Source of the DNA: Squalus acanthias
Taxonomy: Eukaryota
Assembly (NCBI GenBank): GCA_030390025.1
Contig: CM059447.1
Span: forward strand, 41,478,001-41,542,000
DNA: 64,000 nucleotides
Reading direction: 5' to 3'
Position 1 is the first letter of the stretch, and each line of letters begins with the position of its first letter. The notes beneath the pieces were generated by a model. That model saw only the letters and a program-made list of their open reading frames with translations, ran no database searches and was not told the origin of the DNA. A program made the position numbers and the translations under genes. Below, one piece after another: positions 24,003 to 55,429 of this stretch.

Positions 24003-25664
24003 ATACATACATAGATACATACATAGAAGATAGGAGCAGGAGTAGGCCATCCGGCCCTTCGAGCCTGCTCCGCCATTTAATGAGATCATGGCTGATCCTC
24101 CAATTCAGTATCCCGTCCCCGCCTTCTCTCCGTAACCCTTAACCCCTTTTGCCTGTAGAAATATATCTAATTCCCTCTTAAATATATTTAATGAGCTGGC
24201 ATACACTGCCCTCTGTGGCAATGAGTTCCACAGGTTCACCACCCTCTGAGTGAAGAAATTCCCCCTCATTTCTGTCTTAAATGGTTTAGCCCTTATCCTT
24301 AAATTATGTCCTCTAGTTCTGTTCTCACCCGCCAAGGGAAACATTCCTTCTGCATCTAGTCTGTCTAGACCTGTCAGAATTTTATACACTTCTATGAGGT
24401 CCCCTCTCAATCTTCTAAACTCCAGTGTGTACATCCCTAAACTACATAGTCTCTCCTCATAGGTCAATCCCGCCATTCCTGGTATCAGCCTGGTGAATCG
24501 CCGCTGCACCCCCTCCATGGCAAGAACATCTTTCCTCAGATGAGGCGACCAAAACTGTACACAGTACTCGAGGTGTGGTCTCACCAGTGCCCTGTACAGC
24601 TGCAGCAAGGTATCCCTGTTCCTGTATTCCAACCCTTTTGCTATGAAGGCCAGCATACCGTTTGCCTTCTTGACCGCCTGTTGCACCTGCATGCTCGCCT
24701 TCAGTGACTGGTGTACAAGAACACCCAGGTCTCTCTGTACTTCCCCCTCTCCCAATTTATTGCCATTTAAATAATAATTTGCCCTCCCGTTCCTGCACCC
24801 AAGGTGGATAACTTCGCACTTGTCCACATTATAGTGCATCTGCCATTTATCCGCCCAATCACCCAGTCTGTCCAAATCGCTCTGGAGCTTCCTGGTCTCC
24901 TCCTCTGAGCCCACCCCCCCTCCTAGTTTAGTGTCGTCTGCAAATTTGGAAATGCTGCATCCGACTCCCTGATCCAGGTCATTAATGTAAATTGTGAACA
25001 GCTGGGGACCCAGGACAGATCCCTGTGGTACCCCACTTGTTACTGCCTGCCATTCAGAAAATGAGCCGTTTATTCCAACTCTCTGTTTTCTATCTGACAG
25101 CCAGTTCTCTATCCACGTCAGTACTTTCCCCTTTATCCCATGAGCTTCAATTTTCCCTGCTAATCTTTTATGTGGGACCTTATCGAAGGCCTTTTGGAAG
25201 TCCAGGTACACCACATCTACTGGCTCTCCCCCATCTATTTTACCAGTTACTCCCTCAAAAAATTCCAATAGATTAGTCAAGCACGATTTACCCTTTGTAA
25301 ATCCATGTTGACTCTGTCCTATCCTGTCCCCATTTGCTAAGTGCTCCGCTATTTCATCCTTAATGATGGACTCCAGCATTTTGCCCACAACTGATGTAAG
25401 GCTTACAGGTCTGTAATTACCTGCTTTTTCCCTACCCCCCTTTTTGAATAGTGGGGTAACGTTAGCTACCCTCCAATCCATGGGCACTGTTCCCGAGTCT
25501 AATGAATTCTGAAAAATCATACTTAGTGCATCCGCTATCTCTAGGGCCACCTCCTTCAGTACCCGAGGATGCATGTTATCAGGCCCTGGGGATTTGTCCG
25601 CCTTCAATCCCTTTAGCTTCCTTAACACCATATCCTTAGAGATATTGATTTGCCTCAGTTCCTC
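24003..25664 (-). mobile_element. Young 5'-truncated CR1 inserted in an older CR1 tail (23930-24002 and 25665-25815)
   Basis: About 520 uninterrupted codons of ORF2 RT ending at the stop at 24105, with a complete 3' tail. Confidence 0.93.
24105..25664 (-). CDS. CR1 ORF2 reverse transcriptase, C-terminal part (open frame, no endonuclease or start)
   Basis: [40 protein letters not shown] and KFADDTKL motifs all in one frame. Confidence 0.85.
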   Translation of the reverse strand, partial: EELRQINISKDMVLRKLKGLKADKSPGPDNMHPRVLKEVALEIADALSMIFQNSLDSGTVPMDWRVANVTPLFKKGGREKAGNYRPVSLTSVVGKMLESIIKDEIAEHLANGDRIGQSQHGFTKGKSCLTNLLEFFEGVTGKIDGGEPVDVVYLDFQKAFDKVPHKRLAGKIEAHGIKGKVLTWIENWLSDRKQRVGINGSFSEWQAVTSGVPQGSVLGPQLFTIYINDLDQGVGCSISKFADDTKLGGGVGSEEETRKLQSDLDRLGDWADKWQMHYNVDKCEVIHLGCRNGRANYYLNGNKLGEGEVQRDLGVLVHQSLKASMQVQQAVKKANGMLAFIAKGLEYRNRDTLLQLYRALVRPHLEYCVQFWSPHLRKDVLAMEGVQRRFTRLIPGMAGLTYEERLCSLGMYTLEFRRLRGDLIEVYKILTGLDRLDAEGMFPLAGENRTRGHNLRIRAKPFKTEMRGNFFTQRVVNLWNSLPQRAVYASSLNIFKRELDIFLQAKGVKGYGEKAGTGY

Positions 25665-26226
25665 CTGAAAGTTCCAATTGACTCCCAGCATCCACAGCCT
25701 TTTTAGGAGAGAGTTCCAGATTTCTACGATCCTTTGTGTAAAAAAATGATTCCTAATTTCTCTCCTAAATAGTCTGGCTCTGATATTAAGATTACGCCCC
25801 CGTGCTCCATATCTACCCAGTAAACCACTAGTGAACAAAGAGATGGAAGTTCTCCCACTGTCCGGGCCACATCCCTTCCTCAAACAACACCACCAACAGC
25901 TGTCGATATGGGATATTGTCAAACACAAGATGGCTGCCACCTTTGTCTACATAACAACAGTCACTGCACTCCAAAGTAATTCATTGCAGCTCAAGGGCTG
26001 GAAGATGTGACAAGGTGCTATGTAAATATTAGCATATTGCTCTTTTCTTTTACGTATAGATGGTGTTAACTCCTCCACTAATATAGCAGCGGAATGAATT
26101 TTAGACAAACATGTTAAGTTATACGCTGATCTCCAATGGTATCATTTCAGCACCCAAGCTAACAGAGTTATCGAAACCAGCGAACCTCAATCGTGGCTCA
26201 GTCATCGCCCAGTTAGCCGAGAGCTA

Positions 26227-33464: not shown

Positions 33465-35948
33465 ATGGGTGATTTTAATCTCCATATTGATTGGACAAAT
33501 CAAATTGGCCATGGTAGCCTTGAGGACGAGTTCATAGAGTGCATCCGGGATGGTTTCCTGGAACAGTATGTAATAGAACCAACCAGGGAGCAGGCTATCT
33601 TGGATCTGGTACTGTGTAATGAGACAGAATTAATAAATGATCTCATAGTAAAGGATCCTCTTGGAAAGAGTGATCATAGCATGGTTGAATTTCAAATTCA
33701 GTTGGAGGGTGCGAAAGTTGCTGTGTCCTGATCTTAAACAAAGGCAATTAAAAATGGCATGAGGGCAGAACTGGCGAAAGTGGACTGGAAAAATAAATTA
33801 AAGGGTAAGACACTTGAAATGCAGTGGTGGACATTTAAGGAGATATTTCATAACTCTCAACAAAAATATATTCCAGTGAGAAAGAAAGATTTTAAGAGAA
33901 GGGGGCACCATCCGTGGCTAATTAAGGAAGTAAAGGATGGCATTAAATTGAAAACGAAGGCATACAATGTTGCCAAGATTGGTGGGAGACCAGAGGATTG
34001 GGAAATTTTTAAAAACCAGCAAAGGATGGCTAAAAAAATAATAAAGAGAGAGAAGATGAATTATGAGAGTAAACTGGCAAGAAATATTAAAACAGATAGT
34101 AAGAGCTTCTACAGGTATATAAAAAGGAAGAGAGTAGCTAAAGTAAATGTTGGTCCCTTAGAGGATGAGACTGGGGAATTAATAATGGGGAACGTGGAAA
34201 TGGCAGAGACTCTGAACAAATATTTTGTATCTGTCTTCATGGTAGAAGACACTAACAACATCCCAATAATGGATAATCAAGGGGCCAGAGGGAGGGGGGA
34301 ACTAAAGACAATCACTATCAAAAAGGAAAAAGTACTTGGTAAATTAATGGGACTAAAAGACGACAAGTGCCCTGGACCAGATGACCTGCATCCCAGTGTC
34401 TTAAAAGAAGTGGCTGCAGAGATAGTGGATGCATTGGTTGCAATATACCAAAATTCCCTGGACTCTGGAGAGGTCCCAGCGGATTGGAAAACTGCAAATG
34501 TAACATCCCTATTTAAGAAAGGAGGGAGACAGAAAGCAGGAAACTATAGACCAGTTAGCCTAACGTCTGTCGTTGGGGAAATGCTGGAGTCCTTTATTGA
34601 GGAAGCAGTAGCAGCGCATTTGGAAAATCATAATGCAGTCAAGCAGAGTCAGCATGGTTTTATGAAAGGGAAATCATGTTTAACAAATTTGCTGGAGTTC
34701 TTTGAGGATCTAACAAGCAGGGTGGACAAGGGTGAGTCAGTGGATGTGGTGTATTTGGATTTCCAGAAGGCATTCGATAAGGTGCCACATAAAAGGTTAC
34801 TGCATAAGATAAGAGCTCACGGAGTTGGGGGTAATATATTAGCATGGATAGAGAATTGGCTAACTAACAGAAAGCAGAGAGTCGGGATAAATGGGTCATT
34901 TTCCAATTGGCAAACGGTAACTAGTGGGGTGCCACAAGGATCAGTGCTGGAGCCTCAACTATCAACTATTTACAATCTACATTAATGACTTGGATGAAGG
35001 GATCGAGTGTAATGTAGCCAAGTTTGCGGATGATACAAAGATGGGTGGGAAAGCAAGTTGTGCAGAGGACTCAAAGAATCTGCAAGGGATATAGACAGGC
35101 TAAGTGAGTGGGCAAACATTTGGCAGATGGAGTATAATGTGGGAAAGTGCGAGGTTATCCACTTTGGCAGGAAAAATAAAAAAGCAAATTATTATTTAAA
35201 TGGAGAGAGATTACAAAATGCTACAGTTCAGAGGGACCTGGGGGTCCTTGTGCATGAAACACAAAAAGTTAGCATGCAGGTACAGCAAGTAATCAAAAAG
35301 GCAAATGGAATGTTGGCCTTTATTTCAAGGGGGTTGGAGTATAAAAGCAGGGAAGTCCTGCTACAACTGTACAGGGTATTGGTGAGACCACACCTTGAGT
35401 ACTGCGTACAGTTTTGGTCTCCTTGTTTAAGGAAGGATATACTTGCATTGGAGGCAGTTCAGAGATGATTCACTAGGTTAATTCCAGAGATGAGGGGGTT
35501 GACTTATAAGGAAAGGTTGAGCAGGTTGGGCCTATACTCATTGGAATTTAGAAGAATGAGAGGTGATCTTATTGAAACATATAAGATACTGAGGGGGCTC
35601 GACAAGGTAGATGCAGAGAGGATGTTTCCCCTTGTGGGGAAATCTAGAACTCGGGGGCATAGTTTCAGAATAAAGGGTCGCCCTTTTAGAACTGAGATGA
35701 GGAGGAATTTCTTCTCTCAGAGGATCGTAAGTCTGTGGAATTCTCTGCCCCAGAGAGCTGTGGAGGCTGGGTCATTAAATACATTTAAGGTGGAGATAGA
35801 TTTTTGCAAGATAAGGGAGTGAAGGGTTATGGGGAGTGGGCAGGGAAGTGGCTTTGAGCCCAAGATCAGCCATGATCTTATTGAATGGCGGAGCAGGCTC
35901 GAGGGGCCAAGTGGCCTATTCCTGCTCCTATTTCTTATGTTCTTATGT
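33465..35948 (+). mobile_element. 5'-truncated CR1 (endonuclease end, RT, 3' tail)
   Basis: MGDFN..SDH endonuclease end; 408-aa ORF with RT motifs; a few frameshifts; ttcttatg tail. Confidence 0.93.
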
Positions 35949-41990: not shown

Positions 41991-42916
41991 CCAGACAGAG
42001 ATGAAAATGGTGTTGGGGCTGATGGCTACGATTTTTGACCCCTATTTGCATATGTGGTTCTACGAGGTCAATGGGATGCAAAATGGGACGGGGTGTTTAT
42101 CGTCCCCGTTTACGTCCCCACCTAAGCTGAACTTCACCCCCCCCCTCCCTCCCATGATGTCGGAGGATGTAACTTGTGGGCGAGGCTGGCACGAGTGAGG
42201 GCAGGTAAACAAAGGGCCGCCCTCGGGGGGGCTACCAGCCAGTGTGTGACTTGTGGTGTGCCGCAGGGTTTCATGGGTAAAACAGAATAACCAGGTTTCA
42301 GCAGCCACCCGGCCGATATTGTGTTCACGCAGGGTGTGACCACCATCTCATACTTACATCTACAGGACCGCGCAGGATTACAAAGAGCTGCCAACCTGGA
42401 CCAGAATGACTGGACTTGCATAAGGTAATGGACTGGTCCACAGGTAGAACAGTGAGAGTGGAATCAGCCATGACTTTAAACAGATTGTGCATCCACTCAT
42501 TTTAAAGCGTAATTAGCATTTTTATTGATTTCCATAGTATAATTTATGATCAGTCCATTACAACGCATTATATTAAATTCTAGATTCTATCTATTTAAGT
42601 CGTCAATCCTGCTAACTAACCCGTCCACCCTTGTACCTTTGACTGATTGAGTTACTCACTGCTGACCCTCAGCACAATGGATGAGATTTAAGGAGATTAG
42701 AGTACGGTAATGACACCAGCGAGATTATATTGGAGAGAACAACAGTTAATGGATTTGCCTTCGTGATGTTGATCAGATTAGACTGTGCGCCACATGCCAG
42801 CACAGCACAGACTGTCGAAATCACTGGCACAACGCGCCCCCGGTGGCCCAGTGAATAACTGCACCAATGGGTCCTGCAATGAAACAGGATGAGAGTTCGT
42901 CGATGTTCTTTTACCT

Positions 42917-42954
42917 TCACCTGACGAAGGAGCAGCCGCTCCGAAAGCTTGTGA
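42917..42954 (+). ncRNA. Minimal type I hammerhead ribozyme motif
   Basis: TCAC-CTGACGA-A-GGAGC-agcc-GCTCC-GAA-AGCT-T-GTGA: stem I, core, stem II and palindromic helix III. Confidence 0.8.
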
Positions 42955-43042
42955 TTTCAAATAAAGCTGTTGGACTATAACCTCGTGTTGTGAGACTTCT
43001 CACTTTTGTCCACCCCAGTCCAACACCGGCATCTCCGCATCA
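42917..43042 (+). mobile_element. Penelope-type mini-element (family B, 126 bp)
   Basis: Perfect 9-bp TSD CTTTTACCT (42908-16 / 43043-51); starts with a hammerhead motif. Confidence 0.8.
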
Positions 43043-43322
43043 CTTTTACCTATTGGCACAGGCCAATGAGTGATGAAATTCAGCAAAGTTCGATGCCACC
43101 AGGACAATTTCAAGCACCCGCTCGGAAAGATGGCACCGTTAATGAGAGGAAGTGCCCCGTCAATAAACCTTTAAATGACATGCGTTCAATTTCTGTTAAT
43201 AAACCTATTCCATGTCCACCAGTCGCTGGAGGTTACTCCAGTACCTAAGAATGTTTGTATTAGTTTTGGTATGTAATTTAGTGACACTCCCTTAACAATC
43301 AGTATCAGATGGCATCAATTAC

Positions 43323-44326: not shown

Positions 44327-44399
44327 TCTCTCACCGTAATGTGGATCAGGCAGCAATATGCTGATGTTGGACATCATAGGAGCTTAGACTCAACTGAAA

Positions 44400-44692
44400 A
44401 AAGAGAGACTTGCATTTCTACAGCGCTCTTCACATCCTCAGGACATCCCAAAGCACTTTGCAGCCAATGAAGTACTTTTGAAGTGCAGTCACTGTTGTAA
44501 TGTAGGAAACGGGGCAGCAAATTTGCGCACAGCAAGCTCCCACAAACAGCAATGTGACAACATCCTCCAACAGTGCAGCATTCCTTCAGTACTGCACTGG
44601 GAGTCTCAGTCTAGATTTTGGAATGGGACTTGGACCCATGACCTTCTGACTCAGAGGCAAAGAGTGCTGCCCACTGAGCCCCACATCTGACA
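44400..44692 (-). mobile_element. Deu-type SINE with internal deletion
   Basis: Head and tail present, middle missing. Confidence 0.8.
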
Positions 44693-51258: not shown

Positions 51259-52403
51259 CTTCTCTCTCCTTATTGAAGAAGTTAATCATAGCAAATAATC
51301 ATTGTACATGACTTGCATGGTATACACAACTCTTGGTATTCTAGGCTGAGCCTGCAGAGAATTTTTCTCCAAGGGCTGACCTTGATCTACATTTGGACTC
51401 TTTACACTTTCAGACTGTTTGTCTGTCTGACTCGGGCTCAGACTTAAATTCTGACTTTGTCTTGGACTTGTTTCTGGTACGTCTGATTTGCTACTGGTAC
51501 TCTACTTGTAACGAGACTATCTGACTCATCAGAATAAATTGAATCATCCCAGCTTTCAACTCCTTCCACATCTGTAGGTAAGATATGATCAATGTGAACA
51601 AACCTAACCTTTCCATGATCAAACATCTTGACCAAATATGTGCGAGGGCCACATATCTTCACTACTCTTCCTGGTAACCACTTTAACCATTTATGGTGAT
51701 GGTTCTTCACTCTAACCTTCTGGTTCAACTTCACACTTCTCTCTCTAACTCTACCTTTATCATGACTCTCTTTCTGCCTTGATTGTTTCTCTTCTATGGA
51801 CTGTGCCACGTTTGGCTTTAACAACGAGAACCTGGTCCATGGCTGTTGTTTGAGAAACAACTCTGCTGGTTTTCTACCAGCAGTGGTATGAGGAGTATTC
51901 TGATAGGTAATCAGAAAATTTGCCAGTTTGTGGTCCAACGACAACTGATGTTTCTTTGGATTTGGATCCAACATTTGCTTGATGAGGGCATGTTTGACAA
52001 TTTGTACTGTGCGCTCTGCTGCACCATTTGAAGCAGGGTGGTACGGTGGAATTTGGTATGTTTCACACCGTTTCTGCTCATGAACTGTGAGAACTCTTCT
52101 GAACAAAATTGCAGCCCATTATCAGACACAATTTCTTCTGGGAGGCTGTATGAAGAAAACAATCTTCGCAAATTGTCTAGTGTTTTCCTTGTTGTTATTA
52201 TCCACATCGAAAACACCTCTACCCACTTCGAGTGACTATCACTATGAACAATTGCTGTCCTTCTAGCTCAGCAAAATCTACACGTAACCTTTGCCATACT
52301 CTGGGAGGCCATTTCCATGGCTGTAATGGTACTGATGGTGGTTTCTTGCTCACTGATTGACATGTTGTACACTGACTGACTATGTACTCTATGTACTCTA
52401 TCT

Positions 52404-52515
52404 ATGTCTCTTCCCAGTTCTGATGAAAGGTCATCGACCTGAAACGTTAACTCTCTTTCTCTCTCCACGGATGCTGCCTGGCCTGCTGAGTTTTTCCAGC
52501 GTTTTCTGTTGTTAT
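52404..52515 (+). mobile_element. Penelope-type mini-element (family A) inserted in the Gypsy integrase
   Basis: 14-bp TSD TATGTACTCTATCT (52390-403 / 52516-29). Confidence 0.8.
52416..52452 (+). ncRNA. Minimal type I hammerhead ribozyme motif
   Basis: AGTT-CTGATGA-A-AGGTC-atc-GACCT-GAA-ACGT-T-AACT. Confidence 0.78.
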
Positions 52516-55429
52516 TATGTACTCTATCTCTTTATCTAATCCTGGCCACCATAAGTAACTGCGTGCAAAACTCTTGGTCAAGCACATTCCCAGGTGCTGG
52601 TCATGAAGATCTCCTAACAATTTAGACCTGAACCTATTTGGGATATCAATCTTGCTCCCCACATGATACAATCTTTATCCACTGACAATTCATTCCTACG
52701 AACGAAGTATGGATGGATATCTTCCTCTGATACCTGGTTTGGCCATCCATTTGCTATGTAATCATACACCTTTGACATAATTGGGTCACGTTTGGTTGCC
52801 CTACCAATCTCTTCAGCTGTGACTGGCAGCTCATCAATGTATGAGAAATAGAACACTTCTTCCTTATTGGGTGTAACTTGTGATGGGGATGGCAACCTGG
52901 ACATAGCATCAGCATTACTGCGTTCAGCTGATCGTCTGTACTCAATGTCATACGTATACACTGACAAAATCAAAGGCCATCTCTGCATTCAGGCTGCAGC
53001 TAAGGTTGGAACTGGAGACTTTGGATGGAGGATTGCTGTCAGGGGCTTACAACCAAACTTCTTGACACCAAAAATCAATGACAAAGCTTCCCTTTCGATC
53101 TGCGCATAATTCCGCTCACTGGCACTGAGAGTGCATGAAGCAAAAGCAATTGGTCTCTCCTCCCCACTATCCAGTACATGAGAGATCACTGCCCCAACTC
53201 CGTACGGAGAGGCATCACATGCTAGCTTGACCTCCTTAGATACATCATAGTGAACTAACATGGTACTCGCTACTAACTGGCTTTTACACTCTTTGAATAC
53301 TGTGTCACATTTTTTTGACCACTTCCAAGGGACCTGTTTTCTCAACAGCTCGTTCAGTGGATGTAACAATGTCGCCAAGTTTGGGAGGAACTTTCCGTAA
53401 TAATTCAAAAGACCCAAGAATGATCGAAGTTCAGAGACATTCTTGGGAGTGGGTGCATTTCTCATTGCATCCAGCTTTCCCTTGGTTGGATGTAAACCAT
53501 CTTTGTCGACTCTGTGCCCGAAGTACTCCACTGAGTTTTGAAACAACTCACACTTGTGAGCTGTCACTTGTACTCCGTGCTTCTCTAGCCGTTTGAGCAC
53601 TTCATTCGACACCTCATCATGGATTTGCCTGTTTGGTGCTGAAATGAGTATGTCATCCAAATAATACACTACCCCTTCAATCCCTTACAAAATTTGGTGC
53701 ATCACCCCCTGGAATATGTTGGGGGCAGAAGAAACTTCAAATGGTAGCCTATTGAACTGATATAGCCCTCGGTGAGTATTTATAGTCAAGCATGACTTGG
53801 ACTTTTCATCTAACTCAAGTTGTGGTAGGCATTGGTTAGATCTAACTTCAAAAAGATCAGTCCACCTGTCAGCGTTGTGAACAAATCTTCCACATTTGGC
53901 AACATATTGGGTAGATTACACTCTAGAACCTGGTTTACGGTCACCTTATAATCACCACACACCCTTACCTTACCATCTGACTTAGGTACAACAACAATGG
54001 GTGTAGCCCAATTACTCAGATCTACCTTAGAGATAATGTTCTCAGTTTCTAGTCTTTTGAGTTCTTGCTCAACTTTCTCCTTGAGTGCGTATGGTACGGG
54101 ACGTGGCTTGCAGTAAACTGGTCTTGCGTCCTTCTGCACTCTGACACTCGCCTTGAAGTCTGGGATCGGACTGCCCGTTTCGCTGAACACCTTCAGATAC
54201 TGCTTGATGACATCATCTGTCGATGCAAATTTCGCTTCCACACGAAAAATCTCATTCCAATCCAGCTTCAGTGATCCCAACCAATTTCTACCTATCAAGG
54301 CAGGCTTGTTTCCTGCCACTACTATGAGAGGCAAGCTCTGACACTGATCCTTGTATTTCACTGGTATGGTGACACTTCCTACTACAGGGATTTGCTCTCC
54401 AGAGTAGCCTCGCAGCTCTACCTTCGATTTCTCTAGTCGATAATCACGCAACTTGTCGTGATATAGTGATTCTGGTACTACGCTCACGGATGCACCAGTG
54501 TCGATTTCCATGGGTATCCTGGTTCCTGCGACATCTACTTGGATGACGATACCTCGCGAATCGCTGTTAGATACCTTCGTGCGCCTGATGACGTGAAGCT
54601 CCAGAAACTCCACATCCTGTTGCTTCTCTTCAACGGTATGTAGTATCTGGCGATTTCTACTTCTAGCATTGCCAGTCGGTTTATTCTTCTGTCGGCACGC
54701 CTTCGCAAGATGCCCAGTTTTCTTGCAGTAGAAACACTCTGCCTTCACATATGGGCAGCTTTGAGCGATGTGTTGTCCCAGGCACCGATAGCACGACTTC
54801 AATGCACTGTTACCTTGGCCAGTTGCTGAGGCCTTGGGACCCAACTGCCTTTTACTTTTAGCCTGCAGCTGATTCACCTCGGTTGTCTGATGACTGGAAA
54901 TGGCGCGGAACTCTCGGGAGTATCGGTCGGCCATATCCATCGACATAGCTGTCTGACAAGCTAAGTCAAAAGTCAAGTTAGGGGTTGTCAACCATTTACT
55001 TCTGACACATTCATTTTTCAACCCACAAACAAAGTGGTCACGCAAAGCTCGGTCCTGAAAGTTCCGAAATGACAGTGAATGGATAGCTTTTTTAAAGCAA
55101 CAATGTACTCACTGGTACCCTCGTCATTTAATTGATCGCGTGTTCCAAAACGATAACTTTCAGCAATTTCCAGGGGCTCCGGACTGTAGTGCTGTTCTAA
55201 CTTGGTTAAGATCTCCTTCAGTGGTTTGTCCTTCGGCTTGGCGGGAACAAGCACATTTTTCAGGGTTTCGGACACCTCGGGGCCTGCTTCAGTCAAAAAA
55301 ATAACCCGTTTCATTTCTACAGTCTACATCATCGGGGACTTCGCCGATACTATTCGCAGTGAAAAACATTGCTAGCCGCTCCACATACGCTCCGAAAGTC
55401 TCTCCGTCACGATAGAACTCACCCAAGCA

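What the first reader, a model, noticed from the sequence alone, without database searches (positions are those of the whole stretch)
42908..43051. 126-bp insertion that begins with an intact minimal hammerhead ribozyme
Seen: a perfect 9-bp TSD encloses a non-coding insert whose first 38 nt form stem I (TCAC/GTGA), core CTGACGA, stem II (GGAGC/GCTCC), GAA, palindrome AGCT, then T. Known: Penelope-like retroelements carry minimal hammerheads whose palindromic helix III forms only in dimers. Inference: this is a tiny non-autonomous ribozyme-bearing retroelement (solo pseudo-LTR or retrozyme-like), with predicted cleavage after 42950 (CUU).
Basis: partly seen in the sequence, partly recalled or inferred. 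Interest (0 to 1): 0.7.

Follow-up and report, generated by a model that had tools for sequence, protein, structure and literature searches.

The report
Penelope retrotransposon stub with hammerhead
This 126-base insert is the non-coding front end of a very abundant jumping gene (a Penelope-like element), carrying its known tiny ribozyme motif; it is likely a dead-end stub left by that element, and where such stubs begin hints at how the element copies itself.

Summary
In detail: a 9-bp direct repeat encloses 126 bp that open with a minimal hammerhead, with compensatory stem changes among copies. It is not a separate retrozyme. The insert is 91-97% identical to the stretch that ends at the A of the start codon of an 892-aa RT + GIY-YIG ORF (Neptune-type Penelope-like element), which recurs after the ORF as the pLTR with its tail. 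Two 29-nt tail variants occur 30,891 times in this 3.7-Gb shark-like genome. Of 120 copies taken in genome order, most carry an inverted second arm and a 12-13-bp TSD; single-armed stubs like this one are a minority. 5' ends pile up at an initiator-like A 30 nt below a TATA box (41 of 120 within 16 nt; 3 in the 16 nt upstream), with a smaller peak at the predicted scissile bond. Likely mechanism: the parent RT starts internally near the AUG and runs off the RNA's 5' end. Cleavage and expression are untested. The kind is published, and this scan found it before in other shark genomes. Ordinary element; the junction map is a modest, testable extra.

The parts
42908..42916 (.). left target-site duplication; its last 2 nt (CT) also match the element just upstream of the insert start (microhomology)
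   Evidence: family TSD statistics
42917..43042 (+). 5' leader / pLTR end of a Neptune-type Penelope-like element; last base corresponds to the A of the parent's ATG
   Evidence: 91-97% identical to the stretch ending at the first Met codon of an 892-aa ORF in 12 of 16 fetched stretches
42917..42954 (+). minimal type I hammerhead motif: stem I 4 bp, core CUGACGA, extra A, stem II 5 bp, GAA, palindrome AGCU, U17; predicted scissile bond 42950/42951
   Evidence: Rfam no hit
42968..43025 (+). predicted hairpin (9-bp arms 42968-42976 / 43017-43025) spanning the short 3' end of the family
42999..43012 (+). zone where the short arms of the family end (element positions 83-96): inferred first RT start site
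43007..43042 (+). 35-40-nt 'tail' ending at the ATG: inferred second RT start site
   Evidence: tail concept from PMC11167929, PMC8557442
43043..43051 (.). right target-site duplication

Best explanation
The insert is a copy of the non-coding leader (hammerhead motif to start codon) of an abundant Penelope-like retrotransposon whose RT + GIY-YIG ORF is intact elsewhere in this genome, likely inserted by that protein as a dead-end stub. Inferred steps: the endonuclease makes a staggered cut (9-bp TSD); RT starts inside the element RNA at the tail site next to the AUG and copies toward the 5' end; it runs off at the predicted transcription start (initiator-like A, 30 nt below a TATA box) and joins the target through a 2-nt microhomology. 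Most sister copies add a second, inverted arm started about 38 nt earlier; this one did not. The template was uncleaved, since the whole hammerhead was copied. The ribozyme is predicted to work only as a dimer or with protein help, and this single copy, lacking the TATA box, is probably inert.
For: Shown: identity to the leader of full-length elements, position 126 = A of ATG in 12 of 16 fetched stretches (11 of 15 distinct places); ORF has RVT_1 (E 1e-8), DKG motif, Cx4CxxC linker and VYLI..WYIGET..R motif; 20 of 36 homologues of the C-terminal domain hit Pfam GIY-YIG, 9 above the cut-off; tandem unit of 3138 bp plus inverted copy. Family size: 22,356 + 8,535 exact tail matches, 23,745 RT candidates. 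Two 3' end classes, 83-96 and 125-128, as in the published tail/internal-initiation model (PMC11167929). 5' ends of 120 genome-order copies: 41 at -8..+7, 11 of them exactly at the initiator-like A (-2), against 3 at -24..-9. Genome-wide junction patterns: 1212 at -2 against 22, 34, 35, 71 at four control positions. TATATAT lies 30 nt upstream of that A in all 14 reference copies printed; the same TATA + TCACT layout is published for a rotifer pLTR (PMC3846280).
Against: No RNA 5'-end data: the transcription start is predicted from sequence only. 45 of 120 copies extend upstream of -12, so ordinary 5' truncation of 3'-pLTR templates also occurs, and this copy could be one: its left TSD loosely resembles the element's upstream sequence (BLAST extends 10-11 nt into it). 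RT stalling at the hammerhead fold would also pile ends near the same place. The parent protein itself does not hit Pfam GIY-YIG and its fold search was not significant. No empty site was found.
Confidence: 0.8

Rival explanations
1. Ordinary 5'-truncated copy primed at the 3' pLTR of a full-length RNA; ends gather at the hammerhead because RT stalls on its structure or joins by microhomology, not because the RNA begins there.
For: 45 of 120 copies run upstream past -12; 5' ends are also spread inside the hammerhead (11 at +10..+14); loose similarity between left TSD and upstream element sequence; heavy 5' truncation is the published norm (PMC8557442).
Against: Stalling should stop RT at the 3' side of a stem or inside it, whereas the mode is 2 nt beyond its 5' edge, with a sharp drop upstream (41 versus 3) and a TATA box at the textbook distance.
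Confidence: 0.3
2. An independent non-autonomous element (SINE-like or retrozyme) that is transcribed and re-inserted as a 126-bp unit, possibly through circular RNA.
For: Tens of thousands of short copies with TSDs; non-LTR retrozymes derived from pLTRs are reported, including in one chondrichthyan (bioRxiv 10.64898/2026.07.22.740005).
Against: No fixed unit: 5' ends and arm junctions differ from copy to copy; no tandem copy here (1 match in the 64-kb window); circle-derived copies should be permuted around the cleavage site, and this one is not; closest relatives include full-length coding elements (96.8%); the TATA box is absent from the stub.
Confidence: 0.05
3. A solo pLTR left by recombination between the two pLTRs of a full-length insertion.
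For: Single pLTR end between intact TSDs; solo pLTRs were ascribed to recombination or deletion in a rotifer (PMC3846280), though those lacked TSDs.
Against: It needs an upstream pLTR that itself began at +1; full-length copies are about 1 in 120 of tail matches while short copies dominate and mostly have inverted arms that recombination between direct repeats would not make.
Confidence: 0.07

Closest known systems
Minimal hammerheads (min-HHR) in pLTRs of metazoan Penelope-like elements (Cervera and de la Pena 2014, PMC4209133)
   Same: [quoted passage not shown]
   Different: Helix II is 5 bp here (7-8 in Schistosoma); N17 is U in 122 of 154 matches; sharks were not named in the parts read.
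EN+ PLE insertions with inverted pLTR, tail and TSD (Arkhipova et al. 2013, PMC3846280; Craig et al. 2021, PMC8557442); Neptune/Nematis-type by the CX2-5CxxC linker
   Same: Single RT + C-terminal GIY-YIG ORF, partial tandems, inverted 5' copy, 30-40-bp tail on one end, TSD, TATA + TCACT in the pLTR.
   Different: TSD mode 12-13 bp here against 8-10 bp in the rotifer; the tail ends at the ATG rather than inside the ORF; this copy has one arm only.
Poseidon_Ac of Anolis carolinensis (Frangieh et al. 2024, PMC11167929)
   Same: Two internal RT start sites a tail-length apart; uncleaved RNA is the main template; hammerhead near the ORF start.
   Different: There the ORF starts at stem II and RT starts 111-118 nt into the ORF; here the hammerhead lies wholly in the leader. 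No RNA ends at the cleavage site were seen there; here DNA junctions show a small peak at it.
Non-LTR retrozymes (bioRxiv 10.64898/2026.07.22.740005)
   Same: Non-coding, type I hammerhead, pLTR-related.
   Different: Defined as tandem repeats with a hammerhead in consecutive units; this insert is single and its family has no fixed monomer.

Membership tests
EN+ Penelope-like element (parent) | single ORF with RT domain | tested here: met
   892 aa, RVT_1 E 1.3e-8, above cut-off
EN+ Penelope-like element (parent) | C-terminal GIY-YIG endonuclease with CCHH | tested here: met
   indirect: 20 of 36 homologues hit PF01541, 9 above cut-off; C64, C68, H104, H110 conserved in 90% or more; the query itself had no Pfam hit and a non-significant fold search
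EN+ Penelope-like element (parent) | partial-tandem pLTRs, inverted 5' copy, 30-40-bp tail, TSD | tested here: met
Neptune clade | CX2-5CxxC linker before the endonuclease (shared with Nematis) | tested here: met
   C-x4-C-x2-C read; definition from PMC8557442
Neptune clade | RT phylogeny with named reference elements | not testable with these tools
   no Repbase/Dfam references held; clade label rests on the motif
PLE minimal hammerhead | conserved core, extra nucleotide 9/10.1, G10.1-C11.1, palindromic 15.1-16.1 | tested here: met
   (extra A 154 of 154; AGCT 152 of 154; G-C 148 of 154; regex required the core)
PLE minimal hammerhead | covariation in helices I and II | tested here: met
   2 of 9 pairs change on both sides, 1 by wobble; few independent events
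PLE minimal hammerhead | self-cleavage as dimer or with protein | not testable with these tools
   double-hammerhead fold -21.7 kcal/mol against -30.7 for an alternative stem-II-swapped dimer; no activity data
non-LTR retrozyme | tandem repeats with a hammerhead in consecutive units | tested here: not met
   one match in the window; sampled copies are single or inverted pairs
non-LTR retrozyme | fixed monomer unit, circular RNA | tested here: not met
   5' ends vary from -506 or further to +92; circular RNA itself not testable

The most novel reading that the evidence does not exclude
The tens of thousands of stubs are a fossil map of the element's RNA ends in the germ line: most arms run off at a capped sense-strand start (initiator A, often with a preceding G), and a minority start exactly at the hammerhead's scissile bond (180 junctions against 34 and 71 two bases to either side and 22-35 further away). 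That would be genomic evidence that a PLE minimal hammerhead cleaves in vivo, removes the cap-bearing 36 nt of its own mRNA, and that both cut and uncut sense RNAs serve as templates, arguing against the antisense self-priming model.
Probability: 0.35. Interest if true: 0.6.

Novelty: new member of a known kind. Interest (0 to 1): 0.3.

Why it matters
As a single insert it matters little: dispersed single hammerheads from truncated Penelope-like elements are published and this genome has over 30,000 copies of the same end. The value is in the family. Whether PLE hammerheads cleave in vivo, and which strand templates the inverted arms, are open questions (PMC4209133, PMC11167929, PMC3846280). 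This young family, with many intact 892-aa ORFs and base-precise junction peaks at the predicted start site and scissile bond, gives sharp predictions that 5'-end sequencing and an in vitro assay can test.

Tried and rejected
Rfam at gathering score: 0 hits in the window; minimal PLE hammerheads escape those models. Empty-site search: the left flank occurs once more (C455) but with the insert. RNA evidence: no RNA holder listed on record; four contig sets laid on the leader showed no splice joint and cannot show starts or ends, so they are not used as evidence. Parent protein against PDB sequences, PHROGs and NCBIfam: nothing decisive (one endonuclease family at E 0.1). ESM Atlas gave no result for the C-terminal domain. 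AlphaFold models of the C-terminal domain were poor (pLDDT 33 and 47); Foldseek listed UvrC GIY-YIG domains at ranks 2-9 but with E above 1, not counted. Exact look-up of two parent proteins: not in the collection. Cap-derived G: 86 of the first 100 listed junctions at -2 have G before the A (counted by eye), but among trimers not explained by the partner arm the split is 11 G to 11 A, so it is suggestive only. Folding the insert in context gives low stem I probability (0.01-0.16). The paper on dimeric cleavage of PLE hammerheads (Lunse et al., recalled) is not held. Rejected: chance direct repeat (control 0.7%), independent retrozyme, a TSD longer than 9 bp (flanking bases mismatch).

Full report
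Observation. The window holds an exact 9-bp direct repeat at 42908-42916 and 43043-43051 around 126 bp. Rfam gave no hit at gathering score. The insert occurs once in the 64-kb window. Element positions below count the first base of the insert as +1.

What it is. A search of the own genome (3.7 Gb) scored 40 of 348 candidates, and all 40 matched at 95-100% over most of the query. Their flanks show one shared 3' end and many 5' ends; two of the 30 loci fetched join the sequence to RT and endonuclease coding DNA. A search with that RT piece found 23,745 candidates, 150 scored, many in 921-codon open frames. I fetched 16 stretches chosen for long frames. In 12 of 16 (11 of 15 distinct places) the query ends exactly at the A of the first Met codon of an 891-892-aa ORF, at 90-97% identity; the other 4 are rearranged; the same sequence recurs about 335 nt after the stop codon, ending either at 83-94 or at 121-126. 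One locus has a 3138-bp tandem plus an inverted copy. The protein has RVT_1, a DKG motif, a C-x4-C-x2-C linker and a GIY-YIG-like motif. It does not hit Pfam GIY-YIG itself, but 20 of 36 homologues of its C-terminal domain (36 chosen from the 150 listed, for short length) do, 9 above the cut-off, and the CCHH residues are conserved. Named close homologues come from sharks. By the motif definitions in PMC8557442 (passages read) this is an EN+ Penelope-like element of Neptune type; no tree was built. Two 29-nt variants of the tail occur 22,356 and 8,535 times, controls 0.

Is the hammerhead real? Among 154 motif matches in 120 loci, stem I pair 3 is C-G in 115 and T-A in 23, stem II pair 5 C-G in 141 and T-A in 11, pair 3 A-T in 119 and G-T in 34; loop II varies in length and N7 takes all four bases; the extra A is invariant; N17 is U in 122, C in 31. 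The regex demanded the core. On 52 distinct variants (window copy plus 51 of 54 listed; I dropped two rows with shifted ends and one identical to the window) 95.1% of cells pair, slid controls 17-52%, 2 of 9 pairs change on both sides. These are few events on a tree. The anatomy matches the published metazoan min-HHR (PMC4209133, parts 1-2 of 4 read), which cleaved weakly and only as dimers or trimers. A double-hammerhead fold is possible (-21.7 kcal/mol) but not the lowest-energy dimer (-30.7), and stem I is weak in context. Activity is untested.

Insertion anatomy. I took 120 tail matches in genome order on contig C1 (90 of the first 92 listed for one variant, the first 30 for the other). 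Of 114 with a defined left edge, 87 have an inverted arm, mostly ending at 83-96; 74 of 81 such two-armed copies have a TSD of 8 bp or more, mode 12, against 0.7% in mismatched flank pairs. Of 27 without an arm, 5 have a TSD of 10 bp or more; many of the rest are long copies whose edge my script did not resolve. Two (L089, L103) are single-armed, TSD-flanked and start at +1, like the window copy. One of 120 runs on into the ORF. The two 3' end classes about 38 nt apart match the tail and the two internal RT starts shown in vitro for Poseidon_Ac (PMC11167929, parts 1-2 of 4 read).

Where copies begin. 41 of 120 direct arms start at -8..+7, 11 exactly at the A at -2; only 3 start at -24..-9; 45 run upstream of -12; 4 start at +34..+36 and none at +37..+45. 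In all 14 reference copies printed, TATATAT lies 30 nt above that A, which sits in a TCACT/TTACT initiator-like context; the same layout was noted in a rotifer pLTR (PMC3846280, passages read), whereas Drosophila Penelope has a TATA-less internal promoter (PMC2377424, passages read). Genome-wide patterns of three non-element bases plus about 20 element bases count junctions: 1212 at -2, 180 at +35, the scissile bond, 71 at +37, 34 at +33 (different prefix filter), 22 at +43, 35 at about +68. I read 40 of the 180: apart from one internal duplication they are arm junctions with varied partners, and about 10 can be explained by a 4-nt microhomology with the partner arm. Caveats: patterns differ in tolerance to subfamilies, partner arms are purine-rich, duplicated contigs inflate counts. 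A G precedes the -2 A in 86 of 100 listed junctions, but only in those joined to a partner arm is it in excess, so a cap origin is suggestive only.

Mechanism. Shown: identity, parent ORF, two 3' ends, TSDs, the 5' pile-up. Inferred: the parent protein cuts, starts RT internally at the tail site by the AUG of a leader-bearing RNA, and runs off the 5' end, giving a short product analogous to strong-stop DNA; a second arm from the earlier start site is usually added on the other strand. The window copy has one arm, starts at -1..+1 through a 2-nt microhomology, and was copied from uncleaved RNA. Its left TSD loosely resembles upstream element sequence, so plain truncation of a longer template cannot be excluded for this copy. 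Lacking the TATA box and a partner hammerhead, it is probably inert.

Novelty. Dispersed single hammerheads from truncated PLEs, inverted arms, tails and TSDs are in print. Four full-text searches showed no paper reporting junction peaks at the start site or scissile bond; the library lacks most subscription journals, I read only parts of seven papers (also PMC6155905, passages; bioRxiv 10.64898/2026.07.22.740005, part 1 of 5 and passages), and I did not open supplements, of which Fig. S2 of PMC11167929 and the alignments of PMC4209133 may bear on this. The scan has noted the same kind in other shark genomes, including the pile-up at the ribozyme's front edge, and 393 notes in this genome fit the words Penelope and hammerhead. 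My start-site idea was noted before those look-ups. Verdict: new member of a known kind, interest 0.3.

Noticed in passing
L060, L068, L086, L089; L049, L050, L058; L069, L084, L027: Groups of copies with different 5' ends share the same right flank, so the family appears to insert repeatedly at the same sites of other repeats: a possible target preference.
   Followed up: no
L054, L080, L081, L089 and others: A subfamily has C at core position 4 (CCGACGA, 13 of 154 matches), often together with the C-G to T-A change in stem II.
   Followed up: no
L031/L032 (G000:C1:223.72 Mb): Three apparently identical intact 892-aa ORFs: two in a 3138-bp tandem and one inverted head-to-head; a very young, probably active element.
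   Followed up: partly
L167 (G000:C455): A 99.6% identical duplicate of the window's locus, insert included, on an unplaced contig; haplotig or recent duplication.
   Followed up: yes
window 51444-55108 (-): Fragments of an LTR retrotransposon: zinc knuckle, aspartyl protease, RT, RNase H and integrase hits in three separate frames.
   Followed up: no
window 24105-25946 (-) and 33738-34985 (+): Two RT-bearing open frames of 613 and 415 codons, probably LINE fragments.
   Followed up: no
window 44397-44560 and at least 8 other places: A ~165-bp repeat family at 83-88% identity in both orientations.
   Followed up: no
P0005, P0006, P0007, P0010, P0014: Public shark protein models (septin 5a, NOXP20-like, XRCC5, PPP1R12A-like, follistatin-related 5 isoforms) contain pieces 74-91% identical to this element's endonuclease domain: exonisation or annotation artefact.
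   Followed up: no
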